The notes under the pieces are model-generated. The model saw only the letters and a list, made by a program, of their open reading frames with translations, was not told where the DNA came from and did not search any database. The translations under genes were made by a program, and so were the position numbers. This document shows, one piece after another, positions 1 to 21,931 of a DNA stretch of 64,000 nucleotides. Source of the stretch: Candidatus Latescibacterota bacterium (GTDB lineage: Bacteria > Latescibacterota > CBDEFO01); NCBI GenBank assembly GCA_965237525.1, contig CBDEFO010000008.1:1-64000 (forward strand), given 5' to 3'. Position 1 is the first letter of the stretch, and each line of letters opens with the position of its first letter.

Positions 1-2472
1 TGCTTGACCTGACGAGGCGAAAGGTCGAGCTGTTCCCGCTCGCCGAGTATCGATTCCCATGCCAAGTATAGCCGGACCGCCTCATCGAGATCCTGCAGCC
101 TCGTCTTGGTCCGCGGCCAGAAACACGAGTGTGTTGCGACAAATCCTCGGCGAGCTACCCCTCGATTCCAGGATGGCTTGCGCCGCGGTCTCTGCGGGAT
201 TTCCCTTCTCTTTGCTGTAGGGCGTGTCGGTTCCGAGCACCACGAGTCGTGCATCGAGCTCATCCGGAACATCCTGCCCGGACTGCGGGAGAGGATGAAC
301 TCGATTGAAGTCACCCGTGTTGCGGAGATCGGATCGGAGTCGCGAACCGATCTCCTGCACAACCTTGTCGGGGTCGCGCTTCAACTGCTCGGCGCGATCC
401 TCCGCCAGCTTCGTGACGGTTGGCTGCGTGGAGTACCAGTAACGAGGCCCATCCTGGTAGAGGTACGTTGCCGCACCGGCCAGACGTCGCAGCGCATCGC
501 CGAAAACCCGCCGGAGACTCCCCCGGCATGACACAGCCGAGTTTGACGCGACGGTCCTCGAGACCTCGATGCGCCGCATCGGCAGTGGGTGCGGATCCGA
601 GATAAATCGCTCGCGCAACGCGTCTGGAAGCGTGGAACTTTCCGAGGTTTCGGAACCGCGCCGTCAATCCGTAGCGGCAGCGAGCCGGGCCCGTCCACAT
701 CTTTCTCGATCACCGGCACCCAGTTGTCGGGGAGATACCGGGTCAAACTCGAACTGTACGCGTGGATCGTCGATCGCTATGTTCGCTGGTAGAATCAGCG
801 GATTCCTGTCGCCTTTCTCCCACAGGCTGTGAATCACGGCCGCCATCAACCGCAACACTCCACGCGTGCGCTGGAACTTCACCAGAGTCGACCAATCCGT
901 GTACAGCCGATCGAAGATCTCGGGGTGTATCGGATAGGCCGCCTTGATCCGCTTCTCATAGTCAGCGTCCCGGCACTCAGGCGGGAACTCTTGATGCTGT
1001 GTCCGATAGAGCTCGGCAAATGCGCGGGCGGCCACATCCCTGTCCTTGAATTGGACAGGATCTGTGAACGGCTCGAAAAGCCGCCGCCGCACAATCTCGA
1101 AGCTTTCCTCGGCACTGGCTGGCCGCCAGGACGATTCGATACGCCCGACGACGTTCCGCAGCCGATCGAGCGCCTCCCGACCGCGTTGCCCACCGACCTC
1201 GACAGCATCAGCCTGGGCGTGGGGGGAACCAGCCGTGTCCGAGGCCGGCAAGCTGATCACGAGTAGGCAGTTGTTGGCGAGTTTAGCCGATTCCGTGAGC
1301 ACCTGGGCAAAACTGAACTGGGTCTCGAAGCCTCCGGCGGGTAGGTCGCTCTGGTCATGCAGCTGGCGGGCGTAGGCAACCCACTCATCGATGAGAACCA
1401 GGCAGGGACCATATTCATTGAAGAGTTCCCGCAGTGCATCGCCTGGACTCGTCGCCTTTTCGTCGTCGGCCGCAACCCGCGCGAACGCCTTCTTGCCGCC
1501 CAGTTGCCATGCCAGCTCGCCCCAGAGTGTTCGGACGATCGTGCCATCCGGTTTGGTGACCGGGTTCCCCGGGGAGATCTTGTTTCCAACCAATACAACT
1601 CGGCGCACCGGCGCAAGCTCCGTTGCCTCCGCCTCCTGCAAAACGGAGTCGATCCCGTCCAGTTCCCCGGAGGCTGTCCCGGAGTACAGGTGATACAGGG
1701 CAAGCATGGAGTGGGTCTTGCCGCCGCCGAAGTTCGTCTGGAGCTGAACGACGGGATCACCTCCTTTGCCTTGGAGACGGTGGACGGCCCCAACCAACAG
1801 CCCCTTCAGGCTTTCCGTCAGATACGTTCGCCGAAAGAACTCGACGGGGTCTCGATACTCGTCTGCCCCTTCACCCAGGTGCACCTGCCAGAGATCGGCG
1901 GCGAACTCGGCTTGTTGGTATTGCCCGCTCGCGACGTCCCTGTGAGGGGTGACGATTTCCCGCCAGGGCTTCAGGCTGGCCGCGGCGGCACTTTCAATCG
2001 CCGTTCCCGCCTGCTTGCGCCGCTCCCCCCGCATCTCTTCGTCGTAGCGCACCCGCTGCAGCTCCCGCTTGCGCTTCTCGAGCTCTTCTGACTGCGGCGC
2101 GGATACCGCGGCAAGGAGCCGGCCCACCGAATCCAGGGCTCGATAGGCGTCATCGCTGGAGAAACTCTCCTGGTGCGCCCACTTGTTGCGGTAGTCGCGC
2201 AACTCGCTGACAAGACGCCGCTCCGCCGGTCCCAGAATCTCTCGAAAGACGTCGTGCCAGGTGTCCCCCATCAGCTTGAGCAGTCCGGCCACGTCCTGCT
2301 CGGGGACAGGCTTGTTCCCCAACACACGATCTTCCCCGTAGCCACGCAACTGATGGGCGTCCAATTTTCGCGACTCCAAGGCGCCCTTGATCTCGCGTTC
2401 GACAAACGGGGCCAGACCCGCTTTGAGCAGATCAAGTGCCTTGCCGACCCGTTCGTGATTCGTTATCGCCAT
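1..2472 (-). CDS. Swt1-like HEPN + DUF499 AAA+ ATPase, frameshifted, runs off the window start
   Basis: N-terminal RNKWAH (RxxxxH HEPN), Walker A QTNFGGGKTH, Walker B LVLIDEW, FQRTRGVLR. The protein continues through frames 381..746, 311..700 and 82..618 (LTRYLPDNW..., RRVARAIYLGSAP..., FGDALRRL...YWYSTQP). The first shift is an extra T in a TTT run near 747. Confidence 0.85.
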
Positions 2473-2475
2473 ACG

Positions 2476-4611
2476 CTACTCCTGAGTCTCGTGAGGGGCT
2501 TCAGGGTTTGGTATTGCAGCCTCTGGTTCAGGAGATGAACCCCAGAGCTTAGAAATCTTTGACCAGTCAATTCCGCATTCTTTGGTCCCAGTCCAGGCAT
2601 CCCAAAAAGCCGGATCTGGCGAATGCGGGCGGTGGGCATCCGGGAGCTCCTGCACCTCCACAAGAAGCGGTGCCGGCGCTCCCCAGCCGAGAAGAATAGC
2701 CCGTCTAGAAGGGAGACTAGGCAGTTCGCGAAGGAGATCACCCAATCCATCCGGCACGAGCCGTTTCACCAAGTCTTGGTCTCGATCGTTGACGATGCGG
2801 TGCAACAGGAACGTGTTGCATTGGGAGAGAACGGTCGGCGATATTTCTGACGGGCGTTGAGAAGCCAGCACCAATCCGAGCCCGAATTTCCTTCCCTCCC
2901 GCGCAATTCGCTCAAACATCCGACAGCATGTTCTCCCGGCAGCCGCGGCCGTCTCGGATGTAAGCTCCCGGTGCACAAATGTGTGGGCCTCATCAAGCAC
3001 CAACACTGTGGGAAGTTCCGAGCCCGTTAACCTTCTGTGGCGTTGAACTGCTTCGAAGACCATGCGCGCTAACACGGCCACTACGACATGTACGGCCTCG
3101 GACGGGACAAGCGAGAGGTCCAGCACAGCTAGCGGACCGTTCGCAGCCTGGTCGGCGCCGACGTGATCCTTGAGCCACTCCTCCAGCGACGACGACGCTG
3201 CGTGACCAGGATCTGCGATTGACGCGAGAGGACCAGCCGCAAATAGGCCTCGAATTCTGAGGTTCAACGAGTCAACAGATGGGGAGACATCGCGTCCTGT
3301 AGCATCCGCGGCGAGTGCCTCCACGAACCCAGGCAGTTCCTGGACAGGGAAGAACTTCGGGGTATCCTCTCCGGAAATGAAGTCCTCATCGGACAGTCCC
3401 GCTTGCTGCGCCACTGCTTCCAGAGCTTGCTGAACTTTCCCAAGACTTACTTCCGCAAAGTCGTTGTGCCAAAAGCCTCCGTCTTGCTTTTCCTTGCCTC
3501 TTGCAGCTTCTTCAAGATTGCGCGAACAGTCGACGACTGTCTGTAGTAGATTCATATATAACGGGTCCTCGGAATCCCCAGCAAGTTCTTCGAAATCGGA
3601 CGCCAGATTGATCAACAGCTGAGCAACACCCTCTCGTAGTCCAGGTTGCAGGTGGTCGCCACTCTTAATTCTTAGCGACAGCGCAGTGCGATATCGACTT
3701 ACTCGTCCGCGAACCCGCGTTGCAAAGGCATCCGGTTCACCAGCGCCAGACCTTAGTCTTCGGATCGCGTCAAACAGGATCGGTCGTTGCACCCCCGGCG
3801 CAGCGCCGGTAAACGCAGACCATTCCTCTCCATTCCAAAGCCAAGCCGGTACCTTGAGTGCGCTTGCGGAGCCACTGCCCTCCACCTGAAATACACGTGG
3901 ACTAAGATCGCTGAATGCCCGAGCATACTCACCATTGGGGTCCAGAATGATGAATCTGGCATTCGGATCGCCGTTCTTACGTGCCTCTCGTGCGGCTTTG
4001 AGCGACCATCGAACCAATCCTGCTACCGTACAGGATTTTCCCGCCCCGGTATTGCCTAGCACGGCTAGGTGCCGGCCGAACAGCTTGTCCGGATCGACGT
4101 GGACGGGCGCGCCTCCCGCTGTCGGGCATACTCCAATCTGGATACGTCCACCGACATCGCCGCTCTCACCCTCAACCAGTGCGCGTAGCTGGACATCTGT
4201 CGGAAGCAACACGGGGTCACCTACCGACGGAAAAACATCAACCCCCCTTCGCACTTTGAATCCCAGGTCGTACGGCTCGCCTCGACACGTTGAAGTGAGT
4301 GTGCCGAGCGGCGTCAGCGTCACCAGCCGTGCTGGGAACGGCAAATCGATGAGGCCGAAGTCCTGCATCCCCTTGCGTTTCGGATATGGCAGTCGCTCGA
4401 CGCGCACTGAGGTGATTACACCAACGGTCGCGCCCGATTCGTTGGGAACCAATAGGTATCCGTTGATTCTTGGAAAGCCCGTTGGTGTCCCGGTGTTCAA
4501 CGCAGTGGCTTGTGGCGCGGAAGGGTCTACGAGTACGCTAATGGCGTTCGCGTTAACGCTCTCCACGACGCCGATGGCACGATCTCCTAGAACCTCGACG
4601 AGTGATCTCAT
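2476..4611 (-). CDS. herA: HerA/DUF87 ATPase (Sir2-HerA anti-phage system)
   Basis: N-terminal HAS-barrel-like region, HLAVLGNTGAGKS, LVLDEAH, IAREGRKFG, ASQRPSE. ATGA overlap with the upstream Sir2 gene. Confidence 0.9.
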   Translation of the reverse strand: MRSLVEVLGDRAIGVVESVNANAISVLVDPSAPQATALNTGTPTGFPRINGYLLVPNESGATVGVITSVRVERLPYPKRKGMQDFGLIDLPFPARLVTLTPLGTLTSTCRGEPYDLGFKVRRGVDVFPSVGDPVLLPTDVQLRALVEGESGDVGGRIQIGVCPTAGGAPVHVDPDKLFGRHLAVLGNTGAGKSCTVAGLVRWSLKAAREARKNGDPNARFIILDPNGEYARAFSDLSPRVFQVEGSGSASALKVPAWLWNGEEWSAFTGAAPGVQRPILFDAIRRLRSGAGEPDAFATRVRGRVSRYRTALSLRIKSGDHLQPGLREGVAQLLINLASDFEELAGDSEDPLYMNLLQTVVDCSRNLEEAARGKEKQDGGFWHNDFAEVSLGKVQQALEAVAQQAGLSDEDFISGEDTPKFFPVQELPGFVEALAADATGRDVSPSVDSLNLRIRGLFAAGPLASIADPGHAASSSLEEWLKDHVGADQAANGPLAVLDLSLVPSEAVHVVVAVLARMVFEAVQRHRRLTGSELPTVLVLDEAHTFVHRELTSETAAAAGRTCCRMFERIAREGRKFGLGLVLASQRPSEISPTVLSQCNTFLLHRIVNDRDQDLVKRLVPDGLGDLLRELPSLPSRRAILLGWGAPAPLLVEVQELPDAHRPHSPDPAFWDAWTGTKECGIDWSKISKLWGSSPEPEAAIPNPEAPHETQE

Positions 4612-5984
4612 ATGAGTGCGTCCCCCGGTGTAGCAGGTTGTGCGTCATCCTTGCCGTCTGATGACACTCTCGGATTTCGCCTATTAAGTAGCTCCACCAT
4701 CTTCCAGGTCGTACGGTCAATCGCCGGTTTAGGCAGATAGCGATCGACAAGCGTCGTGAGGTCACCGAAGTGTGGGCCGATGAGAAGCGTGGTTTGTTCG
4801 TTGCGTCCAACGCGGTCGCAGAATCCGGGGATCCTTCCTCCTGCGTCGTCAAATGAAAGGATGGCCAGGTGTGTCGACGGGATCGTCAGCATATCCCGCA
4901 GGATCCGATTGATGTGATCGTCACCGAATCCATATCCGTATGTCACAAGAACCGCGTTCGGCTGGCAGACGGCCGCTGCGAAATCCCGGAACAATTCCGC
5001 ATAGGGGTATTCAAGTGTTTCGACATCTTTCGCCGGATTCGGGTAGATCATGAATCCGTCAGTTGCACCCTTGGGCACTTCCGAATGGTCTTGTGCAGCA
5101 CCAAACGGAAGCGCCTTACGCACTATTCGGTCGTTCTGTCCTGCTTCACCGACTTGGCACCAGTCGATAGACCCATGAAGCTTTGTCAGACGAACCACAC
5201 CCTCAAGGTATCTGGGCTCCCCGCGGATGCCAGGCGGGTTGTAGTGCATGTCTATCCCAAGACGGGAAGCGCGGAACACAGGCTCGAGTTCCCCGACGAA
5301 TCGATCGATTACCCTCAACCCAAGGAGATCTGATCCAAATTCGACTAGACGATCGTAGTTTGTAGTGAAGATATGTAGTCTCTCTCTCGTCGCAGTACGG
5401 CTGGCGAAGGTCAGTAGGAAAGATCCAAGGAGGCGTCGCGCCCCTTGCGCGGCCGCGGTGTTTCCCTCAACCATCGAGCGTATCCCGGCCTCGGTCTCCA
5501 ACACCTGGCCAAGGAACGACACGAGCTTCCTCTCCAACGCCTTGGCCCAGACTTCATGCAGGGACCTGGCCTTCTTGACAAAATCATCATCACCCTTCTC
5601 CTCAGTCGAAAACACCGCAAGACCTTGGATCAACTCACGCGCCGCACGAATTGCATCTTCGATGTTTGGTTTCTCGCGCCCGCTCACTTTCGCACTCTTG
5701 GCCGCTGCCGCCAGGACGGCTTCGCTATATTCACCCTCCAATCCGTCCACGGACATATCAATTGCGGGTACGCACGTGTGATGAGCAATTGCAGTTGTTA
5801 GGCCGCCCCCAACCAGGAGATTGAGATGCTCTGCCTGAAGCAGTGCCGCAAGCCACGGCTCAATACGCTCCCGGTGCTGATTGACCCCGTCTTCATCTAG
5901 CTCTCCGGATTTGTAGAACTCATAGGAGCCAGCTCTTACCTTGTGGCAACTCCATTGCGTGGCGGCAACTTCTTCGCATGTCAT
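4608..5984 (-). CDS. SIR2-like (SIR2_2) NADase partner of HerA
   Basis: LLVGGGLT, IFTTNYD, KLHGSIDW and GYGFGDDHIN motifs; directly upstream of herA. Confidence 0.88.
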   Translation of the reverse strand: MTCEEVAATQWSCHKVRAGSYEFYKSGELDEDGVNQHRERIEPWLAALLQAEHLNLLVGGGLTTAIAHHTCVPAIDMSVDGLEGEYSEAVLAAAAKSAKVSGREKPNIEDAIRAARELIQGLAVFSTEEKGDDDFVKKARSLHEVWAKALERKLVSFLGQVLETEAGIRSMVEGNTAAAQGARRLLGSFLLTFASRTATRERLHIFTTNYDRLVEFGSDLLGLRVIDRFVGELEPVFRASRLGIDMHYNPPGIRGEPRYLEGVVRLTKLHGSIDWCQVGEAGQNDRIVRKALPFGAAQDHSEVPKGATDGFMIYPNPAKDVETLEYPYAELFRDFAAAVCQPNAVLVTYGYGFGDDHINRILRDMLTIPSTHLAILSFDDAGGRIPGFCDRVGRNEQTTLLIGPHFGDLTTLVDRYLPKPAIDRTTWKMVELLNRRNPRVSSDGKDDAQPATPGDALI

Positions 5985-5986
5985 AT

Positions 5987-8900
5987 TCAGTTCTCCCCAG
6001 CCTCAAACAGGGTAGTCTGTTCAGCTTCGGCCTTCTGTTCTTCTCGCGCCAAGCGCATGATCTCGGGCCAGCTCTGCACCAGGCTGTTGTAGGAGAGCGC
6101 CGCCGCGGGGCGTTTTTTTCGCTCGCATAGTGTGTACAGGCGGTAGCACAACTCGCGAGCCGCCTCGGCCTTGGCGTTGAGTTGGGCAGCGATCTCGGCC
6201 GCGGCGTTCTCGCCGCCGGCCTCCAGCGCTCGTACGAAGTGATGCACCATCTCCCAGGCGGTCAGCCGCGGGTCGGTCTTTGGGTCCCAGTCTGGAGGCA
6301 GTTCCTCGGGCCGCAGCAGTCGGACCTTCCCCGCTCTTGAGGTCAAAATCCCCGCCTCCACCATGCCCGTAACGCTCGTGTTCTTGGCCTTGGAGAGTGT
6401 TTCGGCGATGCCGTATTCGCCTTCGTCGAAGCCGGACTGCTCGAACCAGGCGAGCGCCCAGCGGCTGTCGGCGTCGAAGTCCCCTTCCTGCTCAGCCAAC
6501 GCCTCATCAAGCGTCTGGTTGATGAGTGCTAATGCTTCGCGCACCGAGAGGGCGTTGCCTTCGGCGTCGAGGACTCTCCCGTAGCGGGTGTAGATCGCCA
6601 TGCCCGGGCCGATGGCCGCCTGCGCCAGGTCAACCGGCGCGATGTTGCCGCGCTGCAGGTGAGCCAGGGCCACCGGCAATTCAGATTTGAGGGCCGCAAC
6701 GAACTCGCGGCGGGTAGCCATCGGCGCGTCCGCAGGGCGCTGGCGGCAGACGAGGACGATACTGGAGGCGAGGGCGTTGGCCTTCTGATTGCGTTTTCGG
6801 TTTTCGCGCTCCGTGCGCACCGGCCAAGTGCCGGTAATCGAAAAGCCAGCATCAATCACGGCTTCGAGAAATGTTTCCCAGCCTGTACTAGATATGTCCG
6901 TGTCAGCTTTGTTCTCCGATTGCTTGAACGCGTAGTAGATGGTCACAGGCAAGAACGGATGTGCGCAATCGGCGAGTCGACGCATCGAGTGTGTCATCCC
7001 CGTGAGAAAGAACTGTTCGGCGGCCTCCTTGCCCCCGTGACGACTTGGCGTAGCTACGAGTTCCTCTACCTTTGGCACAGCGAGCGTCGCAAATAGTTCA
7101 GGAAAGACTTCCCGCAATGAAGGGCGCAACCAGACGTAGAAGAAGTCGGATAGATCACCATAGCCGATGTTGTCGTAGTACGGCGGGTCGGTAGAGACAA
7201 CTTTGTTCAAGCTGATCGACTGAACAGCGGCATCGGATTGACACACCTTTCCTATTGAATCGTGAATTGCTCCGTTCGAAAGTAGACCCGCCACGGTATT
7301 CTTGACCATGCTCTCAAAGGAACCACTCGGACCGCTCAACGTGTTCGCTTCTGCATAGTCCCATAACATCGGAAGCGCCTGTCGTCCGAATGTGTGTCCG
7401 GGGCATTCGACCGCAACCTGGAATGCACAGAGCGTACTTGCGCGGTTGGCCGACTTGCTTACTGCGAATCCCAGGTACAATGTCACCGCCTCGGCATACG
7501 CCGTGGCTCCGGTGCCCCCATCACGTAGCACCCGGCCATCGGCAGGCAACCCTGCGGCGATAGCGTCCTGCCGCACGCGGTGGCGCGCTTCGGTCACGAG
7601 ATCGGAGAAGGTCGTCAGCGCCACGAGCTGGCGAGGGGTGAACAGGTCGCCCCAGTTGCTCATGCCGTACTCCTGGATCCGGAATCCTAGCGCCTTGGCC
7701 GGTAATTTCGCTTCTGGTGTATCATGCGGCTTCGCGCTAAGCGCGACGGCTTCCATTTCCGGCGTCGGCGACAGATACACCCGGCCGCGATCACCCTCGG
7801 CAACAACCGCCATGAGCCGCGCGCCCATGCGCCCTGCTCGGCCCCTCAGCCTTAATGTAATCTCCAGTAACCGGCGTCTCCGACATCACACACTGGAAGT
7901 TCGCACCCCGAGAAAGCTTGGTGCCGGCCTGGGCCGCCGCCGCATCCGGTGGTGCGCCTATCTTCACCGTGAACCGGTAGCCGCCGTCCTCGATCACCGG
8001 CTCAACGTACGCTTCCTTGCCCTTTTTGGTCGAGAGCATGAAGGTGGCGGCGAGCGGCACCTCGACATCGGCAAACGCGGGGTTGGGGCTTTTCACCGTG
8101 CGCGCCCAGAGCCAGGCGATGACGGTGAGTTCGCGGTCCAGGTAGGGTTTCAGATCGGGCCGATTCTTCGCCATCTCGGCGGTGACTGTGACCTTTGGAT
8201 ACAGGTGCCCGATACGTTTCTCTGCCTGGTCGCGCATCCACTGCCCGTAGTAGCGCACGTCCTCGGCGAGCCCCTGTGCCCCCGTCCAGTCGCGCTCGAT
8301 CAGGCTCTTTTCCTGGCGGGTCGCCGGATTGACCGGCGCCTGCCCGGCAAACTTCGGCGGGATCTCGATCATGGCCTTGTTGATCAACACCGCCACCGGG
8401 TTCAGGTCGCTGGCATGGGCTTCCAGCCCCAGCCGCTGCGCCTCCAGCGGGAGCGCTCCTCCGCCCGCAAACGGATCGTGAAAGGCCGGGAGCTTGTGAC
8501 GATCGAAAATCTCCGTGGCTCTCGGATGTGCCGCATTCTCCGCGCACGCCCGCCGCCAACTCTGCCAGATCTCCCGCCGCGCCCGTTCGAGCACTTCTTC
8601 GTTCGTGGTGTTTTCCCAAAGAACCAATTCTTCCATAATTGCGAATAGCCGGTCGCGCTCCTGCTCGGCCACCACTTCCTCAAGCGTGAGCTCCGGCTCC
8701 GGAATGGCATCGTCATCCTCCAGGACCGGCTTCGCCGCATATCCCGCAACGCGCTTCTTGGGCTCTGACTCTGCAGCCCTCCTTTTCTTCGTGTCCGACA
8801 GCAGCTCGTCCACATACCCGGACGGATCATCCACCATCTGGGCGAAAATCACCGCCCGCGCCGCTGCCAGCGGTCGACGCGCCCACCAAAGGTGTAGCGT

Positions 8901-8999
8901 GCTGGGATGTCCGTGGCGAATGGACTTCTCCCTGGCTGAGGCCTTGTTGATGGCATCCAGCGGCAAGGCGACTTCAATGAGTTTCTTCATGTGGGTCAC
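5987..8999 (-). CDS. DUF1156 amino-DNA methyltransferase, split by one frameshift near 7845
   Basis: [10 protein letters not shown]...[10 protein letters not shown]-terminus, motif I DPFAGGG, motif [10 protein letters not shown]. ORFs 7791..9017 and 5987..7828 join if one G is removed from a GGGG run. A GTG start overlaps the upstream TGA. Confidence 0.88.
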
Positions 9000-10279
9000 G
9001 ATCTCGCTTCCTTCCACAGGCGTACCAGGAAACGATCATCCTCTTCGATGAGGTCCGGCTCGGTGCCGTTGTGCGCGCGCATCCCAGCAATGATTTTGCG
9101 CGGCACTCCGAGGCCGGTGGCTTCGATGTAGCGGTAGTCGCGCAGCACCTCCTTGATCAGCTCGTTGCGCGAGGCGCGGTATCCGGCCCGCATCTTGTCG
9201 ACGGTGACCGTGTTCGGGAGGCGCCCGGGAGAGATGATCTCGATCCGGTCCATGTAGATGGAAAGCTCGATGTCGGTCACGGTGATGGTGTAGTCGCGGT
9301 GCGCGACCGCGTTGACCAGCGCTTCGCGCACGGCTTCGAGCGGGTAGTCCCAGCGCTCCAGGCGCCGCCCACCGTTCTCGATCCAGGCGGTCACTTCGAT
9401 GTTGCGGCGCACGAAGTCGAGGGCTTGCTCGATGACGCCCGCTTCAACGGCGTTGCCAGCCTCCGAAAAAGTGCGTGGAAGGGAGTAAAGCGGTTGCCCG
9501 GGATCGTCCGACAGGGCTGGAAACAGGGACACTGCGGGACCTCGCAGCGTCGCCCGGGACTTCGCGTCATAGTCCTTCTTGGTGCCGGAGTAGGCCACTG
9601 TGCTGATTCCGGCCTGGGGGAGGAAGCGGTTTGGCTTCAGGCCGAAGAGCAGCAGCCCGCCCGCGCTCGGCATCGGTCGGGCCTCGGCCATCAACTCGGT
9701 GTTGACCAGCAGGTGCAGCCAGGACTCGAGGTCCGTGTCCTCTGGAGCCCCCTGCTGGCGCAAGTCACGGAAGTAGTTCACCAGGCGTCGCAAGTCGAGG
9801 TCGTCGAACGTCGCGCCGGAAACTGGCTTGCGGTCGTACCGTAGGTGCCCGGACTGCATGTAGAGACGCGCTTCCTCTGGGTCCGTCGCATCGCGGGTGG
9901 TCGTGCCCACCCGAACCTGCGTCACCCACGCCGATCCGCGCTTGGCCTTGTAGGGTTTGTCCGGCGCGTCGGCGGGGAGCGAGATGACTCCGACGACGTT
10001 TCCGTCGTCCAGCTCCAGGGTCTCCCAGAACGGAATGGCCGCGGGGCGAAGGTGCACACGCGCGACCTCCATGATCCATTCCTCGACTTGCTTCGGTGCG
10101 CGGGCCAAACCCGTAACGTTACCGTCGTCTTCAACGCCGAGGAGGAGATGCCCTCCCTCTAGGTTCAGCAGCGCCGCCAACTCCTTGGCGAGTCGCTCAG
10201 GGACGACATCGTCACGCTTGAACTCGACGCCCGAGTTCTCGCCGTTGCGGATCAGCTCTTCCAGGTCGGTTCGGTTCAT
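8996..10279 (-). CDS. Schlafen/AlbA_2 domain + HATPase_c_4 (RecG C-terminal-like) protein
   Basis: [56 protein letters not shown]. Confidence 0.85.
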
Positions 10280-10290
10280 CGCACTGCTCC

Positions 10291-13005
10291 TCAGAACCCG
10301 TACTTCCGGCGCCGGCGCTCGAAGGCTTCCTTGCCGCCTTCAAGGATCTCCTCGACCAGCTCGCGCACGGGCTTGGCGTCGATCGAGCCCATGTGCTCGG
10401 GGGCGATGCGCGCGCGGCCGTGCTCGGCCTCGCCAGTGGCGGAAAGGCCGACGATCAGCTCGGCATCGCCGAGGACCGGGATGTTGGCGTTGTGGGTGGA
10501 GAAAAGGAACTGCCGGCGCTGCTTCTCCTCGCGCATGCGCGGGACGACGCCCTCGGTGATGAAGCGGTTGTCGAGATCGTCCTCCGGTTGATCGACGATG
10601 AGCGGCGCTTCGGACTCGAGCAGCAGCAGGAGCAGGACCGCGGTGGCCTTCTGGCCGGTGGAGAGGTCCTCGAGCGCCTGCCACGCCGGGGGATCCCCGG
10701 CGGGAGCCGTATTGAGTTGGATCGCGGTCGTCGGGGGCAGGTCGAGTTCCTCGACGTGCATCAGCACCTCGGGCTCAGCCTTGGCGAGGCGCTCGCCTTG
10801 GGCTGGCGTGATGCCGAACGTCCTGTTCAGCGCCTCCGCTCCGGAACGGCAGGCCTCGACGAACTGAGTGAGGGAGAGGTCGCGAACGCCCCGGAGACTT
10901 TCGATCGCTTCGGACAGTCGCCCGCCAACCTTATCCCGGAGGAGGTTGAACAGCGGCTCGCGGTCTCCGGCCGCGGTCACCTTCACCTGCACCCGGCCGC
11001 GGAGCTTCTTGTTGACTCCATTTGCCGCGCCATCCAGGCGTCGGAACTCCTGCGCCTTGAAGTCCTCCCACTCCGCCAGCAGGCTGCGGCGGCGGTCGGC
11101 GTGCTCCTTCTCGGTGCGCCGGGCCGAGGCCTGCCGCTCGCGCAGAGGCCGCAGCTCCTCGATCTGCCGCCGCAGGCGGATGAACTCCTCGCCGTCCACG
11201 CGCAACTTCTGCAGCTCGCGGAGGGTCTTCTCATAGACCTCTTGGACATCTTTCTTGCGCGTCTCCCACTCGGTGCGCACCAGGGCGACACCCTCGTCGG
11301 CGCGTGCCAGCGCCTGTTCCAGGTCCTTCGCGATTCGCTGGAGCTTGATGTCGAGCGTTTTGAAGACGCCGTTCAAGCGCTGAAGGATCTCCTTTCCGGG
11401 CAGATCCTCGATCGCCTTGGCGGAGAGGAACACGCGGTCCATCGGGACCTCGCGCTTCAGGGTCTCGAGACATTCGCGGAATGACGCGAGGCGCTCCGGG
11501 ATGGAGGCAAGCAGGCGCTCCTCGCGCACGAGCAGGCTCTGCTCCTTGAGCCGATCCTCGAGCCCGGCTTCACGAAAGTGATCCAGCGTCTCTTCGAGGC
11601 CCGGAAGCGCTGCCAGGCGCTCCTCGATCTGCGCCAACTCGGCGCGCGTGTCGAGCAGGCTCTTGCGGCTCTTCTCCAGCGTGCGGCGCAGGTCGGCCTT
11701 CTTGCGCGGAAGGTCGTCATCACGATCGACGAAGCGGTCGAGCAGGCGGGTCAGCTTCTCGCGGCTCCTGGTCAGCTCCGAGATCTCGTGCTGGCCGAAG
11801 ACCTCGACACGCGGCAGCACGTCCTGGGGCGAGAGATTGGACACCTCGCCATGATCGTCCCGGACCAGCGGCGGGTTCGGGATCGTTCGCTCGATGCGGT
11901 ACTCGCGAACCGCTGGGCGATGGGCGCGGACCAGGACTGAGATCTTGGTCCCGTTCTTTAGGACGTGGCGGATGATGCCCTCGTGGGCCCTGCGCGCCTC
12001 GTCGCCGATGGCCTCGAGGCCCAGCACCGTGCGGATGCTCTCGATCACGGTCGACTTGCCGGTCCCGCGGCCTCCGACCAGGACGTTGAGGTTCGGATTG
12101 AAGTGGATAGCGGCGCCGTCGAGGAATCCCCCCTCCCAGGCGAGCGCGACGAGCTCGGCGTGCTCCTCTGGCTCCAGCTTGCCTTCCCTGGGATTGAGGC
12201 GGATGCGCGAGCCGGGGTCCAGAAAGGCCTGGCGCAGCCCTTCGGTCGTCACCTCTGACATCTTGATCCAGCAGGTGGCCGAGCCATCGTCGAGGTCTTC
12301 GGGCTTAGCGATGTCTTTCGCGTTGATGACCGCGATGGCGAGCCCATCCTCTGCGGCAGGGTCACGCCGGTAGTCGGGGTTCGTGTTCTTCACGATTTGC
12401 TTCGCGTCGTGGGGCAAGTCGGCAACGAGGCCGGGAATCTGGATCGCCAGCAGGTCCCCACTCCGCCACGCCTGGATGCGCGCCTGACCGGTGAGGACCT
12501 TGAGCAGCCCCTTATCGTTGGTCACGTGGGCAGCAATCGCGACACCGCCCTGCTCGCGTACCTTGGCGAGGATGTCCACAAAGGCCTTGTCAGCCAACTT
12601 GGCCGATGGATTCGTGTCGGTGATGCCGAACCCGCCGAGGTAGCGCGCGAGGAGGTCGTCCGCGGTATCGGGGGCATAGATGCACAGAACGTGAATACCT
12701 TCGCTCGACGACAACTCGAAGCCGGGAAAGATGTGGATGCCACGTCCTTTGGCGGCGGCGCGGAACGCGGAGACGCCGCCGCCGTGGTTGTGGTCGGTGA
12801 TGGCGAGCACGGTGACGCCGAGGTCCGACGCTTTCCCAACGATCGCCCCGGCGTGATCGACAGCGTTGCTGGACGGTGCGTTACCCCGGTACGTGGAATC
12901 GTAGTGGTGAGGGTTCACCTGAAGCGCGCAACGATGGAACACCGCGCCGCTCGGGAGTTCCCTTGCCTTGGTGATCACATCATCGGCAGCCATGGGGCAC
13001 CTCAT
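10291..13005 (-). CDS. PHP-domain + SMC/ABC-type ATPase (Ppl/TrlF-like defence protein)
   Basis: AITDHN, PGFEL, IHVL and AAHV PHP motifs; GGRGTGKST, long coiled coil, LSTGQK signature, IVDQPEDDLD, STHN. Confidence 0.85.
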   Translation of the reverse strand: MRCPMAADDVITKARELPSGAVFHRCALQVNPHHYDSTYRGNAPSSNAVDHAGAIVGKASDLGVTVLAITDHNHGGGVSAFRAAAKGRGIHIFPGFELSSSEGIHVLCIYAPDTADDLLARYLGGFGITDTNPSAKLADKAFVDILAKVREQGGVAIAAHVTNDKGLLKVLTGQARIQAWRSGDLLAIQIPGLVADLPHDAKQIVKNTNPDYRRDPAAEDGLAIAVINAKDIAKPEDLDDGSATCWIKMSEVTTEGLRQAFLDPGSRIRLNPREGKLEPEEHAELVALAWEGGFLDGAAIHFNPNLNVLVGGRGTGKSTVIESIRTVLGLEAIGDEARRAHEGIIRHVLKNGTKISVLVRAHRPAVREYRIERTIPNPPLVRDDHGEVSNLSPQDVLPRVEVFGQHEISELTRSREKLTRLLDRFVDRDDDLPRKKADLRRTLEKSRKSLLDTRAELAQIEERLAALPGLEETLDHFREAGLEDRLKEQSLLVREERLLASIPERLASFRECLETLKREVPMDRVFLSAKAIEDLPGKEILQRLNGVFKTLDIKLQRIAKDLEQALARADEGVALVRTEWETRKKDVQEVYEKTLRELQKLRVDGEEFIRLRRQIEELRPLRERQASARRTEKEHADRRRSLLAEWEDFKAQEFRRLDGAANGVNKKLRGRVQVKVTAAGDREPLFNLLRDKVGGRLSEAIESLRGVRDLSLTQFVEACRSGAEALNRTFGITPAQGERLAKAEPEVLMHVEELDLPPTTAIQLNTAPAGDPPAWQALEDLSTGQKATAVLLLLLLESEAPLIVDQPEDDLDNRFITEGVVPRMREEKQRRQFLFSTHNANIPVLGDAELIVGLSATGEAEHGRARIAPEHMGSIDAKPVRELVEEILEGGKEAFERRRRKYGF

Positions 13006-13152
13006 GTTGGTACAGGGCGCTCGCTCGAAGCCTGTCGAGCCAGGACCGGATCGATTGCTTCCGGACTGATTCCTTGTTCATGGCATCGAGCGGGTGAGCG
13101 ACTTCGACGAACTTGCAATGCGAGTTAGTAATGGATGTGTCGTTGAAAATTC

Positions 13153-13237
13153 GCAGCGCTGACCTTAGCCTTCGCTGCATAACCCCGCTGGCGATAATAT
13201 CGCCAGCCTGACGCCCCGAAAGGGGCGTTTCTTTGTT
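13153..13237 (+). terminator. Three consecutive hairpins, the last resembling a plus-strand intrinsic terminator
   Basis: GCAGCG..CGCTGC (13153-13178), GCTGGCGAT-AAT-ATCGCCAGC (13187-13207), ACGCCCC-GAAA-GGGGCGT followed by TTCTTTGTT (13211-13237). Confidence 0.55.
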
Positions 13238-13245
13238 CCTTCCTC

Positions 13246-16200
13246 TCATGACGGCTTCCCCGCTCGCGCAAGTAACTCCGCGAAGTCGTAGTTCACACTG
13301 GCCACACCGAAATCCGGTTCACGCTGGAAAGGCTGACGAACGTAGTGGACTCGGTGGTCTGTTCCGTCAACGAACTCCACGATCCCGAGGATGTAGTCCT
13401 CGGGCTTGTTCAGTGAGTACAGAATCTCATTGCGCGTGATGGTGATCGTTGACGCGCCGCTGGTCCGGCCCTTGACCTCGATGAATCGGAGCTTGCCCGT
13501 ATCCGGCACGCGGCTTTCGATGTCGTACCCCCGTTTCTCGAACTCCCGGTCAGTCGGGTCAAATCCCAGATTCCGCTCGACTTCCATGATGATGTTGCGC
13601 GCCCGGGCGGCCGATTCCTGCGTATCAACGGCCGTTCTTGTGCCCGCCGATTCACGCCCACTCATTTCATCGATGAGCCCCTTGGGCACGACCAGCAATC
13701 CTCCCAGCACCACCGGTGGCAGAGGCGAGATTTGCGCCTCGAGCTTGAGTTCCTCAAGCCGTTTCTGGAGACGTGTTTGCAGCGTGTCCGCGCGCTTGCG
13801 GGCCTCACCTGAATTGAGCCTCGCTCCGGTCTTGCCCGCCTGCTCCTGCAGTTTGAGTTGCTCGGCTCGATGATCCCAGTAGGAGATCTCCTTTGTGAGA
13901 CGGTCCCTTACGGCTCCTTCGGTCTTGCTGATCAACGCCAACTTCGCCTCGCGCACCTCCGTCAAATGCTCCGGGACCACGTTCGCAACAGCGTAGCCCT
14001 GCGCTTTCTTTTCCACATCCCGGTCGATCCATGCGCACTGCGGCCGCTCGAGGATTTGTTCCAGACCGGGATCGTCGTCAGCGAGCGGGCGATAGTCGAG
14101 ATAGGGCGCATAGTGCACATGGCGGGTTACGCCATCCGCATCAAGTTCCACGTACAGCATGCGCTTGGAGATGATCCGACGATCCCCCGAGCGCGTCAGG
14201 CTCGCATCTTGGATCGCGTGCTCAAGATAGAAAAGCACGCGCGGCTTGTTGCCCTCGTCACGCTCGTCGACCAACACAGCGCCCCGTTTCAAGAGATCCC
14301 GGTGTCGTTCCAGCGTCAGGTCGATGACCGCATCCAGCAATGGGTGCCCGGGACACACAAACGCCGCCAGCGGTTGCCCATGGGGCGCCACCAAAGATTT
14401 CTCAAAGGCAACGCGCTCGTACCGGGGAAGGACCGGTTGTCCAATACCAATCAATCGATCTCGATTCCGAACGGGTGCGGGAACGTGGGTGATCTCGTAG
14501 CGCCGATCCTCACGCTGCTTGGCTGAACCGCCCAGGCGTTGAAACGCCGCCTGAAAGAACGACTCGATGTAGTGAGGTTGTAGACGGCGGGCTTCGGCCC
14601 GCTCCATTTCCTCACGTACTCGGTACACTCTGCTCGCGTCCATGGCGTCGTGCGCGAGGGCGCGCTCTTCCAGCAGGTCCTGGAGCCTGACGCGGTCCAG
14701 GGCATGATCGACCGCCGTCGTGAGGCGCGCTCGAACCTCCGGTTGTTCCCCGTAGCGGATTGCCTCGATCAGGAGCTTGCGAAGGGGCCGCCCCTCGAAG
14801 TGGAGCTTGCCGAGCACATCGAACACCTGCCCGCCGAGGGTTTCCCGCGCCTGCTCCAGCTTGTCGAGGAGCTTGCGATAGACGTCGCCCTCTCTTGTTT
14901 CATCCGCGACGAGGTTCCAGAGGTGACACACTTCCGTCTGGCCGATGCGGTGAATCCGACCGAACCGCTGCTCCAATCGGTTGGGGTTCCATGGCAGATC
15001 GTAATTCACCATCAGGTGGGCGCGTTGGAGGTTGATGCCTTCGCCGGCCGCATCCGTGGCGAGCAGCACCTGCACGTGCGGGTCGTGGCGGAAGGCTTCC
15101 TGGGCCTTGAGTCGGTCCTCGCGGCCCATGCCGCCATGAATCAGAACAACCGACTCCTCACGTCCCAGCAAGGTCGTGATGCGCCCGTGCAGGTAACGCA
15201 GCGTATCCCGGTGCTCGGTGAAAATGACCAGTTTTTGCTTCGGAGACGAGGTCGGTCGGGGAATATCGCCGGCGCCGTAGGGAACGTCCGCGTCCCGGAC
15301 CTCTTCCACGATTTGCCCGGAAGTCCCTCCCGCCGTGAAGATTCCACCGAGCAGGCTTGCCAGCTCTCGCCATTTGGTGTCCGTGCCGCTCCGCCGCACT
15401 TCAAGCGCAAGACCTTCCAGATTCTTGAGCGTCTCAATCTCAGCCTTCAGCTCGGCGATGGATCGCGCCGCCGTCGCCCGGTCGAGAATTTCCTCCTCGG
15501 CCGCCTCGTCCAGGTCCTCGACATCTTCAGGGTCAAGATCCGGTCCCGCGGCGGGAAATGCGATGGCGGCCTGGCCACCACGCTGCAGCACCTCGAGCTC
15601 ACGCAACCGGCTCTCCAGCCGCTCACGGCGGCGGCGCAACGACTGATAGATGGCCTCAGGAGAAGAGGCGAGTCGGCGCTGCAGAATCGTCAGGGCGAAG
15701 CCGACGGTGCCCGCTCGCTGGTCGTTCTCGAGTGCCTCCGCACGGTTGAATTCCTCGCGCACGTAATCGGTGACGACCTTGTAAAGGTGGGCTTCCGCTT
15801 CTGAGAGCTTGTAGGGGACCGTGTGCGCAATGCGCTCCGGGAACAGCGGCGTGCCGTCGAACTTGAGCAGATTCTCTTTCACCATGCGGCGCATCAGGTC
15901 AGAGACATCGGCGACATGAACGCCATCGCGAAAGCGCCCCTCGAATCGATCCCCGTCGATGAGCGCCATGAAGAGCTGAAAGTCTTCCTCTTTCCCGTTG
16001 TGCGGAGTGGCCGTCATCAGCAGGAAATGGCGGGTGAGACTCGACAGCAGTTGCCCCAGCCGGTAGCGTTTCGTGTACTTGACCTCACCACCAAAGAACG
16101 TCGCCGACATCTTGTGGGCCTCGTCGCACACGACGAGATCCCAGCGGCAATCCGGAGCTTGCAGCTTCTGCTGAACGTCCTTGTTGCGGGAGAGCTTGTC

Positions 16201-16839
16201 CAGCCGGGCAATGACGAGACTGGCTTCCAGGAACCAGTTGCCTGTGCGGGCTGCTTCGAGCTTGTCGTTCGTCAGGATGTCGAAGGGCAACTGGAACCGA
16301 CGGTAGAGCTCATCCTGCCATTGCTCCGCGAGACTACCGGGACAGACGACCAGACACCGCTGCAGATCACCGCGAGCGATCAACTCCTTGATGAGCAACC
16401 CAGCCATGATGGTCTTGCCGGCGCCCGGGTCATCGGCGAGAAGAAACCGAAGGGGCTGACGGGGCAGCATGGATTCGTAGACCGCGGTGATCTGATGGGG
16501 CAACGGCTCGACGTCCGAGGTGTGTACGGCGAGCACCCGGTCAAAGAGATGCGCAAGACGGATCCGCTGCGCCTCGGAGACCAGGCGGAACAAATCGCCG
16601 TCTCCGTCGAAGCTCCATGGCCGGCCTACTTCGACGATCTCGAGCCGCGCTTCGTCGTCACGGTACAGAAGCTCATCGGCGACCTCTCCGGTCGGTGTCT
16701 TGTACGTCAACTCAAGCGCTTCGGAGCCGAACCACTGCACGCTGACAACCGTGACGAGGCCGTCGGACAGGATGCCGCGCACCGCAGTTTTAGTCTGGAG
16801 ATCTTCCAGCTTCATGCTCTTGTTCTGTTCCCTGTTCAT
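13246..16839 (-). CDS. SNF2-family helicase with C-terminal DUF3883 (PD-(D/E)xK-like) nuclease
   Basis: LLADDPGAGKT, CDEAH, TATPH, TDAAGEGINLQ, QRFGRIHRIGQ; C-terminal GYDIES...FIEVKG. The true start may be MKLEDL at 16815. Confidence 0.92.
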   Translation of the reverse strand: MNREQNKSMKLEDLQTKTAVRGILSDGLVTVVSVQWFGSEALELTYKTPTGEVADELLYRDDEARLEIVEVGRPWSFDGDGDLFRLVSEAQRIRLAHLFDRVLAVHTSDVEPLPHQITAVYESMLPRQPLRFLLADDPGAGKTIMAGLLIKELIARGDLQRCLVVCPGSLAEQWQDELYRRFQLPFDILTNDKLEAARTGNWFLEASLVIARLDKLSRNKDVQQKLQAPDCRWDLVVCDEAHKMSATFFGGEVKYTKRYRLGQLLSSLTRHFLLMTATPHNGKEEDFQLFMALIDGDRFEGRFRDGVHVADVSDLMRRMVKENLLKFDGTPLFPERIAHTVPYKLSEAEAHLYKVVTDYVREEFNRAEALENDQRAGTVGFALTILQRRLASSPEAIYQSLRRRRERLESRLRELEVLQRGGQAAIAFPAAGPDLDPEDVEDLDEAAEEEILDRATAARSIAELKAEIETLKNLEGLALEVRRSGTDTKWRELASLLGGIFTAGGTSGQIVEEVRDADVPYGAGDIPRPTSSPKQKLVIFTEHRDTLRYLHGRITTLLGREESVVLIHGGMGREDRLKAQEAFRHDPHVQVLLATDAAGEGINLQRAHLMVNYDLPWNPNRLEQRFGRIHRIGQTEVCHLWNLVADETREGDVYRKLLDKLEQARETLGGQVFDVLGKLHFEGRPLRKLLIEAIRYGEQPEVRARLTTAVDHALDRVRLQDLLEERALAHDAMDASRVYRVREEMERAEARRLQPHYIESFFQAAFQRLGGSAKQREDRRYEITHVPAPVRNRDRLIGIGQPVLPRYERVAFEKSLVAPHGQPLAAFVCPGHPLLDAVIDLTLERHRDLLKRGAVLVDERDEGNKPRVLFYLEHAIQDASLTRSGDRRIISKRMLYVELDADGVTRHVHYAPYLDYRPLADDDPGLEQILERPQCAWIDRDVEKKAQGYAVANVVPEHLTEVREAKLALISKTEGAVRDRLTKEISYWDHRAEQLKLQEQAGKTGARLNSGEARKRADTLQTRLQKRLEELKLEAQISPLPPVVLGGLLVVPKGLIDEMSGRESAGTRTAVDTQESAARARNIIMEVERNLGFDPTDREFEKRGYDIESRVPDTGKLRFIEVKGRTSGASTITITRNEILYSLNKPEDYILGIVEFVDGTDHRVHYVRQPFQREPDFGVASVNYDFAELLARAGKPS

Positions 16840-17033: not shown

Positions 17034-17378
17034 TCAGGTGGGGATGCCGTCATCTCGGTCGTCCGCCATCACCAGGCTCCCTGCGGCTGCTGGTTGTGGC
17101 TCGTAGCGCTCGACGTTGATCTCATCCTCGCGTGCTTGCGCCTGGGCTACGTCGTAGGCCGCTTGCAACCGGATCCAGGTCTCCGTCGTAGAACCGAAGG
17201 CCTTCGCAAGGCGGACTGCCATGTCGGCTGAAATACGGGTGTGGCAATTCACCAGGCTCGAGAGTGCCTGGCGACTGACGCCCAGGACTTTCGCCCCTTC
17301 GGTGACGTTGAGACCGAGCGGCTCCAGACAGGACACACGCACCACCTTGCCGGGGTGTGGCGGGTTCTTCATAGGCAT
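17034..17378 (-). CDS. higA: HigA-family antitoxin (XRE HTH)
   Basis: MKNPPHPG...LGVSRQALS.LVN...ISADMAVRLAKAFG...WIRLQAAYD. Confidence 0.9.
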   Translation of the reverse strand: MPMKNPPHPGKVVRVSCLEPLGLNVTEGAKVLGVSRQALSSLVNCHTRISADMAVRLAKAFGSTTETWIRLQAAYDVAQAQAREDEINVERYEPQPAAAGSLVMADDRDDGIPT

Positions 17379-17394
17379 AGCGTTCCCCCTTCAT

Positions 17395-17520
17395 TTAGTG
17401 GTAGTCGATCAGTTCGACGTCATAGACGTCCTCGCCTGCGAAGCGGGAAATGATGCGCCAGTTGGCTTTCACGGTCACTGCCCAATAACCTTTCAGCTTG
17501 CCTTTGAGGGGATGCCCCAG
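17395..17520 (-). pseudogene. higB: 3' half of a HigB/RelE toxin
   Basis: Manual translation: HPLKGKLKGYWAVTVKANWRIISRFAGEDVYDVELIDYH*. No 5' half is present. Confidence 0.85.
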
Positions 17521-17762
17521 TCATCGAGAGCCGCCGCTAACGCGGTGGAGCCAAGGATATCGGCGAGGTCCGCTCCCTTGTTACGAGCGATCACTTGGTC
17601 AAGGGTGGCTTGCCCATGCAGGATGTCCGCGATGTCCTCCTGGAACATGGCAACGTCCCAAGGCTGTACCAGATAAACCATTCGCCTCTTCGAGTTGACC
17701 TGCGACTTCTCGATTACACAATCCATTTCATGAAGGCGTTGCCGGATTTCTCCAATGTCCAT
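17493..17762 (-). CDS. Hypothetical protein (89 aa) abutting the higB remnant
   Basis: ATG-started ORF with plausible composition; no recognised motif. Confidence 0.4.
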   Translation of the reverse strand: MDIGEIRQRLHEMDCVIEKSQVNSKRRMVYLVQPWDVAMFQEDIADILHGQATLDQVIARNKGADLADILGSTALAAALDDWGIPSKAS

Positions 17763-17799
17763 CTACAAATACTACCGCAGGACAAGCCCGTGACCACAG

Positions 17800-18075
17800 T
17801 GAAAGTGAGAGAAAGTCAGGGTGACCAGACCGTTGTTGTTCAGGATCTTCATGGATCGTGATCGACGATATCCTTCGGCCCTCCAGGGCCAACATCGCCG
17901 CCAGCCAATTGCAGCCATAGGCTAGATTTTCCAGCACCAACTGCTGGATCTGCAACACCGTCTCGGGCGGGGTTGTCTGGGGATGGCTCTGGTGGGTTAG
18001 CGGCGGGTCCTTCAGACCCTCAAATCCATGGGTCTGAAAGCGCCGCTTCCACTCACAACAGCTGCTCCGATCCAA
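17800..18075 (-). pseudogene. IS481-like transposase N-terminal HTH remnant
   Basis: WKRRFQTHGFEGLKD.P....SHPQTTPPETV..I..L.LE...YGC..LAAMLALEGRRISSITI. Confidence 0.7.
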
Positions 18076-18155
18076 TCCTCACTAACGACATGCCTCGGCA
18101 ACGTTCCCAACTCGTGTACCAATTTGAGAACGGTCACCTATTGAAGGCTTTCACC

Positions 18156-20131: not shown

Positions 20132-20134
20132 GGT

Positions 20135-20879: not shown

Positions 20880-20931
20880 GCGTTTACACGAGCAGAAGTG
20901 TCATCCTCCCCGTCCGGAGAGCGCAGACGTA

Positions 20932-21795: not shown

Positions 21796-21931
21796 GCTGT
21801 CCAGTTCCGCTTCGCAGGTAAAGCCGATCTTGGTAACCGCGCCGCGCCGAGGATATCTGTTCCCGATAAGCCGCGTGAGAGGCCCACACGGCCGCACGAT
21901 AGAATGGGGCTAGGGGGGACCACATTCTGAC

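What the first reader, a model, noticed from the sequence alone, without database searches (positions are those of the whole stretch)
1..16839. Nested defence super-operon: Sir2-HerA, PHP-ATPase and a Schlafen protein inserted inside a helicase/DUF1156/DUF499 restriction-like system
Seen: the order is SNF2-DUF3883, PHP-ATPase, AlbA_2, DUF1156, Sir2, HerA, HEPN-DUF499, with overlaps or gaps of at most 11 nt from PHP onward. Known: DUF499/DUF1156/helicase restriction-like modules, Sir2-HerA and Ppl are separately described defence types. Inference: the core has two cargo slots holding abortive backups that may guard it, as PrrC guards type I R-M.
Basis: partly seen in the sequence, partly recalled or inferred. 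Interest (0 to 1): 0.7.

Follow-up and report, generated by a model that had tools for sequence, protein, structure and literature searches.

The report
Hma defence operon with swappable cassettes
This is a known three-gene anti-virus operon (Hma) holding two known gene pairs between its core genes; such nesting is already published, and the pairs likely act as interchangeable, self-contained backups rather than as guards wired to the core.

Summary
The gene order and tight spacing are real. The core is Hma (Type-1 BREX-related: hmaA helicase-nickase, hmaB methylase, HEPN-hmaC ATPase). Genes embedded in Hma, and the PrrC analogy, are already in print (Payne 2024; Liu 2024). The cargo is two cassettes, not three items: the PHP-ATPase and Schlafen genes form the named trlF-trlG pair (adjacent in 66 of 66 and 27 of 27 assessable loci; the scan met this pair before on other DNA), and sir2-herA. 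Both slots vary in relatives (36 of 54 and 38 of 70 filled), and both cassettes also occur away from Hma. The same assembly holds a second version of this ~26-kb island without trlF-trlG, and a same-genus genome has the empty site. A decayed copy of the hmaB start lies before trlF; 11 of 85 filled slots hold such copies of the adjoining core-gene end, matching known insertion with long target duplication. Five frameshifts in hmaB/hmaC are likely assembly errors. A dedicated guard link is untested and not favoured. Verdict: new member of a known kind.

The parts
13246..16839 (-). hmaA: SNF2 helicase with C-terminal NOV_C (DUF3883) PD-(D/E)xK nuclease, 1197 aa, intact
   Evidence: PADLOC HmaA 1687.6 bits over 9-1196; PF00176, PF00271, PF13020; Walker A, DEAH and nuclease motifs present
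13006..13245 (-). 240-nt spacer with a hairpin (13210-13229), a near-perfect 17-19-nt palindrome (13189-13205) and the hmaB stub
   Evidence: nearly identical spacer in L002
13043..13114 (-). Decayed copy of the first ~24 codons of hmaB; likely scar of insertion with target duplication
   Evidence: HMM 20.8 bits vs reversed-sequence null maximum 12.2; 15 of 23 aa identical to HmaB, E 2e-7 pairwise; 59 nt at 74.6%
10291..13005 (-). trlF: PHP domain plus SMC-like ABC ATPase, 904 aa; PHP lacks the first HxH metal motif and the last His
   Evidence: NCBIfam TrlF 518 bits (cut-off 350), Ppl 205 (cut-off 1000); alignments; model matches SMC/Rad50/JetC/Lamassu ATPases and PHP folds
8996..10279 (-). 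trlG-type Schlafen (AlbA_2) nuclease fused to HATPase_c_4, 427 aa, Ex4ExK motif intact
   Evidence: PF04326 at 14-129, PF13749 at 336-421; same architecture as Photorhabdus TrlG; motif census 70 of 70
5987..8999 (-). hmaB: DUF1156 N6-adenine methyltransferase, split by one frameshift near 7842 (likely assembly error)
   Evidence: PADLOC HmaB 623 + 879 bits; both methylase motifs present; 73 of 74 relatives in one frame
4608..5984 (-). sir2 (SIR2_2 NADase family), 458 aa
   Evidence: PADLOC SIR2 PDLC04079 556 bits; matches solved Sir2-HerA chains, best E 6e-19
2476..4611 (-). herA ATPase, 711 aa
   Evidence: PADLOC HerA PDLC04098 837 bits; Walker A/B and arginine finger present
1..2472 (-). hmaC: HEPN_Swt1 plus DUF499 ATPase; four frameshifts in the last 750 nt, cut by the contig end; intact 1115-aa version on contig C4
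   Evidence: PADLOC HmaC 636 + 55 + 143 bits; PF18731, PF04465
23762..24928 (-). Tyrosine integrase of the island that carries the operon
   Evidence: PF00589
25076..25088 (.). 13-nt attachment core at the island edge; second copy at C4:16809-16821; single copy at the empty site in G009

Best explanation
This is an Hma (Type-1 BREX-related) defence operon on an integrated ~26-kb island, carrying two separately acquired two-gene cassettes, trlF-trlG and sir2-herA, that likely act as self-contained abortive backups sharing the operon's position rather than as parts wired to the core. Core (inferred from family knowledge; nicking shown only for a Halomonas HmaA): HmaB marks host DNA, HmaC scans, HmaA nicks invading DNA, and the HEPN on HmaC is a predicted last-resort RNase. 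Slot 1 (inferred): TrlF, an SMC-like ABC ATPase whose PHP domain has lost several metal ligands, likely senses infection and gates TrlG, a predicted tRNA-cutting Schlafen, in the manner of PARIS. Slot 2 (inferred from E. coli systems): Sir2-HerA would drain NAD+ once ATP falls. Traffic: cassettes likely first enter by insertion with a long duplication of the adjoining core-gene end (the hmaB stub is the scar) and then likely spread by homologous exchange through the conserved core genes.
For: Core identity. Slot variation in 78 relatives plus the two own versions: A-B slot over 600 nt in 36 of 54, B-C in 38 of 70, both in 20 of 51; 223 cargo ORFs in 146 clusters; 38 of 91 scanned representatives hit PADLOC models, among them HEC-01/03/06/09, Ppl and Menshen. 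trlF followed directly by trlG in 66 of 66 metagenome loci with room (14 of 80 set aside), 27 of 27 close phylum hits, 7 of 7 among the hma relatives. The pair sits in either slot, in an hsdS-hsdR slot, and with no hma-like gene in 38 of 80 fetched loci. Sir2 homologues: 4 in 167 other phylum genomes, none near an hmaC hit; 5 of 5 viral-collection loci have herA and no hma hit. GC3: core 0.71-0.77, trlFG 0.82-0.85, sir2-herA 0.57-0.59. The C4 version lacks trlFG; L002, from another phylum, shares hmaA-spacer-trlFG at about 90-95% DNA identity but has a different B-C cargo. Scars: 7 of 41 A-B and 4 of 44 B-C slots; mechanism described for R-M genes.
Against: No expression, methylation or phage data. 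trlFG does favour these operons: 42 of 80 metagenome loci have an hma-like gene and 18 lie between consecutive core genes, which also fits a functional link. The sensor role of TrlF is inferred: in Photorhabdus the growth-arrest suppressors mapped to trlG and none to trlF. In the bacterial Schlafen study HisKinase fusions were among four architectures tested, and the two proteins that defended were DUF262 and Ig-like fusions. Distant TrlF proteins (27-35%) had no TrlG partner in 5 of 6 plasmids viewed, three of them with the same altered PHP motif. Partner identity tracks TrlF only weakly (rho 0.34). Most filled slots (74 of 85) show no scar.
Confidence: 0.62

Rival explanations
1. Dedicated guard: TrlF-TrlG and/or Sir2-HerA monitor the Hma complex and fire when a phage inhibits it, as PrrC does with EcoprrI.
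For: ABC ATPase plus predicted tRNase is the PrrC/PARIS logic. A trlFG pair sits in the hsdS-hsdR slot of a Citrobacter plasmid. 18 of 80 trlFG loci lie between consecutive hma-like genes. E. coli type III Sir2-HerA is activated by T7 Gp2.5/Gp5.9 and by DNA ends (abstract and introduction), which HmaA nicking could supply.
Against: The cassettes change slot and host and occur alone; only 2 of 27 phylum trlFG pairs lie next to an hmaC hit, and both are downstream of it; sir2-herA is cargo in 1 of 78 relatives, and there internally deleted; the sister version lacks trlFG.
Confidence: 0.2
2. Genomic sink or addiction: the slots are simply tolerant insertion sites and the cassettes persist as selfish toxin-bearing passengers with little defence benefit.
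For: Proposed as a possibility in Payne 2024. TrlG is needed for a growth arrest in Photorhabdus with no phage role reported in the passages read. 146 cargo clusters, most seen once.
Against: Seven of nine tested Hma-embedded candidates defended against phage; catalytic motifs are intact in all cargo genes except the PHP.
Confidence: 0.11
3. The core is dead: hmaB and hmaC are true pseudogenes and only hmaA and the cassettes still work.
For: Five frameshifts in the assembly; no near-identical public contig spans the hmaB break.
Against: All five are single extra bases in short runs near a contig end; related contigs lack the hmaC ones in 3-4 of 4 runs, including a ~98%-identical contig lacking three; one ~88% contig lacks the hmaB one; the C4 version has its own, different single-base slips in hmaA and hmaB; no in-frame stops.
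Confidence: 0.07

Closest known systems
Hma system with embedded defence genes (Payne 2024, bioRxiv 10.1101/2024.01.29.577857; Liu 2024, PMC11232893) = Type-1 DUF499-centred BREX-related system (PMC12839542)
   Same: hmaA-hmaB-hmaC order, NOV_C nuclease, DUF1156 methylase, HEPN-fused DUF499 ATPase; co-oriented cargo between core genes (62.7% of 1,485 systems; about 66.5% in Liu); Ppl and Schlafen-kinase-wHTH genes reported as cargo or close neighbours; backup/PrrC idea discussed.
   Different: The combination trlFG plus sir2-herA occurs in none of 78 relatives; Sir2 and HerA are not named in the main text of Payne 2024 or (Sir2) PMC12839542 (figures and supplements not seen); core-gene-end scars not mentioned in what I read.
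trlF-trlG of the Photorhabdus temperature restriction locus (bioRxiv 10.1101/2020.06.02.129163; NCBIfam NF045780)
   Same: PHP-ATPase followed by AlbA_2/HATPase_c_4 gene; TrlF cut-off met; conserved adjacency.
   Different: No trlR-like regulator detected upstream; embedded in Hma; PHP metal motif altered; sequence identity to the Photorhabdus proteins not measured.
Ppl (single-gene PHP-NTPase 3'-5' exonuclease; review PMC12904381)
   Same: PHP plus ABC ATPase architecture; distant homology (PADLOC 152 bits).
   Different: Below the NCBIfam cut-off (205 vs 1000); paired with a Schlafen; PHP HxH replaced in 74 of 74 close homologues.
Sir2-HerA / Nezha (PMC13434337)
   Same: Overlapping sir2-herA pair, motifs intact, strong PADLOC matches, homology to solved complexes.
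   Different: Below the NCBIfam E. coli equivalog cut-offs (115 vs 500; 199 vs 850); subtype not assigned.
PrrC in EcoprrI; PARIS (as described)
   Same: ABC ATPase with a predicted tRNase placed inside a methylation-based system.
   Different: PrrC is one protein held inactive by its R-M host; here a mobile two-gene cassette found in several hosts, no coupling shown.
Insertion with long target duplication of R-M genes (PMC2853133)
   Same: Inserted genes flanked by direct repeats of tens to hundreds of bases, no dedicated mobile gene in the insert.
   Different: Here the duplicated target is the end of a core defence gene, and repeated events stack several cassettes in one slot.

Membership tests
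Hma / Type-1 BR | SNF2 helicase with C-terminal PD-(D/E)xK (NOV_C) nuclease | tested here: met
Hma / Type-1 BR | DUF1156 N6-adenine methyltransferase | tested here: met
   split by one probable assembly frameshift
Hma / Type-1 BR | DUF499 ATPase, often with N-terminal HEPN | tested here: met
   full 1115-aa version on C4
Hma / Type-1 BR | Three genes co-oriented in one locus | tested here: met
Hma / Type-1 BR | Host DNA methylation and phage defence | not testable with these tools
   needs methylome and phage assays
TrlF-TrlG | TrlF above NF045780 cut-off | tested here: met
   518 vs 350 bits
TrlF-TrlG | Downstream AlbA_2 + HATPase_c_4 gene | tested here: met
TRL operon (three genes) | Small upstream regulator trlR | tested here: not met
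   the only ORF in the spacer has no Pfam hit and contains the hmaB stub
Ppl | Score above NF042955 cut-off | tested here: not met
   205 vs 1000 bits
Ppl | Single-gene system with canonical PHP metal motifs | tested here: not met
   paired in 66 of 66; HxH replaced
Prokaryotic Schlafen | Ex4(E/D)xK catalytic motif | tested here: met
Prokaryotic Schlafen | Phage-triggered tRNA cleavage | not testable with these tools
   needs experiment
Sir2-HerA | Adjacent sir2 and herA matching system models | tested here: met
   PADLOC 556 and 837 bits; below NCBIfam E. coli equivalog cut-offs
Sir2-HerA | NADase and ATPase activity, complex formation | not testable with these tools
   motifs only
PrrC-type guard | Activity held in check by the host restriction complex | not testable with these tools
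   only indirect co-occurrence data, which do not favour it
PrrC-type guard | Fixed linkage to one host system | tested here: not met

The most novel reading that the evidence does not exclude
Hma slots are integrase-free cassette arrays: each new defence cassette enters by duplicating the end of the adjoining core gene, leaving gene-end stubs as separators that also allow stacking and loop-out, and strains of one population swap cassettes and methylase specificity regions at a single island. Within this, the close TrlF clade is a nuclease-dead SMC-like sensor that gates a Schlafen tRNase as a PARIS-like anti-anti-restriction trap for methylation-based systems.
Probability: 0.3. Interest if true: 0.55.

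Novelty: new member of a known kind. Interest (0 to 1): 0.27.

Why it matters
As found, it is one more Hma locus with embedded cargo, a pattern published in 2024. Two things keep some value. The natural pair of island versions, with and without trlF-trlG at one chromosomal site, plus the gene-end scars in relatives, point to how defence operons gain and swap cargo, a question Payne 2024 leaves open. And the locus gives a clean test set for the untested TrlF-TrlG pair, whose altered PHP domain suggests a division of labour different from Ppl.

Tried and rejected
Three separate cargo items: rejected, PHP-ATPase and Schlafen are one cassette. Ppl membership: rejected. trlF-trlG as an undescribed pair: rejected. 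Altered PHP implies a Schlafen partner: rejected, three stand-alone plasmid TrlFs share the altered motif and two paired ones (L038, L069) have canonical motifs. C4 version as a simple loop-out of the window version: rejected, its 41-nt hmaA-hmaB junction differs from the window spacer. Spacer palindrome as a conserved operator: found at 0 mismatches only in L002 and the own locus, and at 2 mismatches in two more of 196 loci. Promoter/terminator scan: no more than shuffles. Solved-structure searches gave no close TrlF or TrlG structure. Neighbour scan of trlFG loci without hma genes: mixed, a few defence-type domains (65 of 80 extracted ORFs, duplicates dropped). Krishnan 2020 (ABC ATPase classification) is not held and may describe the pair. 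No tRNA gene in the window.
Full report
Observation. The window is the first 64 kb of contig C8. Seven minus-strand genes stand in the order given, with junctions of 11, -4, 2, -4 and 3 nt from the PHP gene on, and a 240-nt gap before it. hmaB is split once and hmaC four times, and hmaC runs off the contig.

Core. PADLOC gives HmaA 1687.6 bits, HmaB 623 + 879 bits on the two halves and HmaC 636 bits; Pfam adds NOV_C, DUF1156, HEPN_Swt1 and DUF499. This is the Hma system, also classed as Type-1 BREX-related (PMC12839542; passages and sections 29 and 35 part 1 read). Payne 2024 (abstract, Results parts 1-2 of 3, Discussion and passages read) found embedded genes in 931 of 1,485 Hma systems, validated seven of nine candidates, and discussed PrrC as a model for backup. 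Liu 2024 (abstract, section 18, section 17 part 1) reports about 66.5% insertions, including Septu, PARIS and Ppl, and shows that HmaA alone defends and nicks supercoiled DNA. So the nesting and its reading are in print. I did not see these papers' figures or supplements, which may list sir2-herA or trlFG as cargo.

Slots in relatives. Counting these plus the two own versions, the A-B slot exceeds 600 nt in 36 of 54 measurable cases, B-C in 38 of 70, and both in 20 of 51 (13 A-B only, 7 B-C only, 11 neither); 223 cargo ORFs fall in 146 clusters. Of 91 representatives scanned, 38 hit PADLOC at 1e-20, including HEC-01, -03, -06, -09, Ppl and Menshen.

Cassette 1. The PHP-ATPase meets NCBIfam TrlF (518 vs 350) and not Ppl (205 vs 1000). 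Of 80 metagenome loci kept from 551 relatives, 66 had room downstream and all 66 carry the AlbA_2-HATPase gene next. In 168 phylum genomes all 27 close non-own hits (54% or more, reaching the C-terminus) lie within 25 nt of such a gene, by comparing printed coordinates; conversely 28 of 85 non-own Schlafen places have a close TrlF upstream. An earlier scan note gave the name TrlG; the Photorhabdus preprint (passages) confirms trlF-trlG, the same TrlG architecture, and that TrlG is needed for a heat-induced growth arrest. One search shows the scan met this pair in other genomes. The Schlafen motif is intact in 70 of 70 partners; the PHP HxH motif is replaced in 74 of 74 close TrlFs, and the last PHP histidine is replaced in the aligned ones, whereas Ppl's PHP is an exonuclease (review passage). 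The model (pLDDT 81.9, pTM 0.65) matches SMC/Rad50/JetC/Lamassu ATPases and PHP folds only at low TM-scores. Against a strict partnership: 5 of 6 distant plasmid TrlFs viewed (of 201 records) have no TrlG, and partner identity follows TrlF weakly (rho 0.34, permutation p 0.0005, kin not corrected). The pair sits A-B, B-C, downstream of hmaC, in an hsdS-hsdR slot, or with no hma-like gene (38 of 80).

Cassette 2. sir2-herA matches PADLOC models at 556 and 837 bits with motifs intact. It is cargo in 1 of 78 relatives, internally deleted (L010). Four other phylum genomes have the Sir2, none near an hmaC hit; five viral-collection loci have sir2-herA without hma. Known systems abort infection by NAD+ depletion under an ATP checkpoint (abstract and introduction). 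GC3 separates core (0.71-0.77), trlFG (0.82-0.85) and sir2-herA (0.57-0.59).

Two versions of one island. Contig C4 begins with a collinear copy of window 1-20,557 at 81-98% identity per block: hmaA, a 41-nt gap, hmaB, sir2, herA, an intact 1115-aa hmaC, then host genes. It lacks trlFG; hmaB and herA differ in internal stretches (blocks down to 28% and 23% amino-acid identity). The same-genus genome G009 joins the C8 host flank directly to the C4 host flank, with one copy of a 13-nt core found at window 25076-25088 and C4:16809-16821. The operon is therefore on an integrase-bearing island of about 26 kb at one site. I infer two strain versions at an assembly break (about 80%); a tandem pair is not excluded. 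Public contigs also show empty A-B and B-C junctions (joints 8988-13246 and 2495-6014).

Frameshifts. All five are one extra base in a short run. Related contigs lack the four hmaC bases in 3-4 of 4 runs, one ~98%-identical contig lacking three; one ~88% contig lacks the hmaB base, and no near-identical contig spans it; 73 of 74 relatives keep hmaB in one frame, and the C4 version has different slips. Likely errors, not proven.

Scar. The spacer holds a decayed copy of the hmaB start (13043-13114): 20.8 bits against a null maximum of 12.2, 15 of 23 residues, DNA score 90 against a maximum of 86 in 1,000 shuffles. In 85 slots over 200 nt (own versions included, rearranged L054 dropped), 7 of 41 A-B and 4 of 44 B-C slots contain a copy of the adjoining core-gene end; one (L008 A-B) is weak; other repeats mapped farther off and were not examined. 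Among the trlF loci, 6 of 80 have an hmaB-start stub just upstream, and L104, L135 and L150 show hmaC-start/hmaB-end chimeras between stacked cassettes. This fits insertion with long target duplication, described for R-M genes (PMC2853133, passages; lead from e1-2842032). I found no mention of such scars in Hma slots in searches or in word look-ups of two papers; this is a limited search.

Verdict. Shown: anatomy, family assignments, pairing, slot variation, island bounds, scars. Inferred: activities, abortive roles, independence from the core, entry route. A known system with known cargo: new member of a known kind, interest 0.27.

Noticed in passing
window 18357-20398 (-): Multi-ubiquitin (PF14452), Prok-E2_E gene interrupted by one in-frame TGA (19748-20134), and a 463-aa ThiF/E1 protein: a bacterial ubiquitination-like operon on the same island.
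   Followed up: partly
window 20532-22756 (+): Divergent Xre HTH (weak capH match), IrrE/CapP-like peptidase (72 bits) and a pPIWI-associated nuclease (PF18165); a WCX fragment follows at 22857-23183.
   Followed up: no
window 17034-17520 (-): HigA antitoxin (TIGR02607) with a HigB-like reading just upstream; window 17396-18141, which holds an IS-type HTH fragment, is absent from the C4 version.
   Followed up: no
window 13189-13229: Hairpin and a near-perfect palindrome in the hmaA-trlF spacer; palindrome shared with L002; possible operator or internal control site.
   Followed up: partly
window 3335-3766 vs L079 (C4): herA of the two island versions differs sharply in residues ~280-480 while sir2 is 96% identical, suggesting exchange of an internal HerA segment.
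   Followed up: partly
L014, L018, L019, L023, L044: Latescibacterota loci with the order hmaB-cargo-hmaC-hmaA, a permutation of the usual order.
   Followed up: no
L013, L025, L053: Two hmaB genes in one locus (tandem or inverted), possible specificity switching.
   Followed up: no
L003:4948-9094: Two 95-96% identical hmaB-start stubs and an hmaA-end stub separate several Schlafen-type cassettes: the clearest stacked array seen.
   Followed up: partly
L123-L127, L138: trlF-trlG followed by a conserved ~782-aa nSTAND3 NTPase gene.
   Followed up: no
G000, all contigs: At least two insertion-sequence-like repeats in dozens to over a hundred near-identical copies, present at several contig ends.
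   Followed up: no
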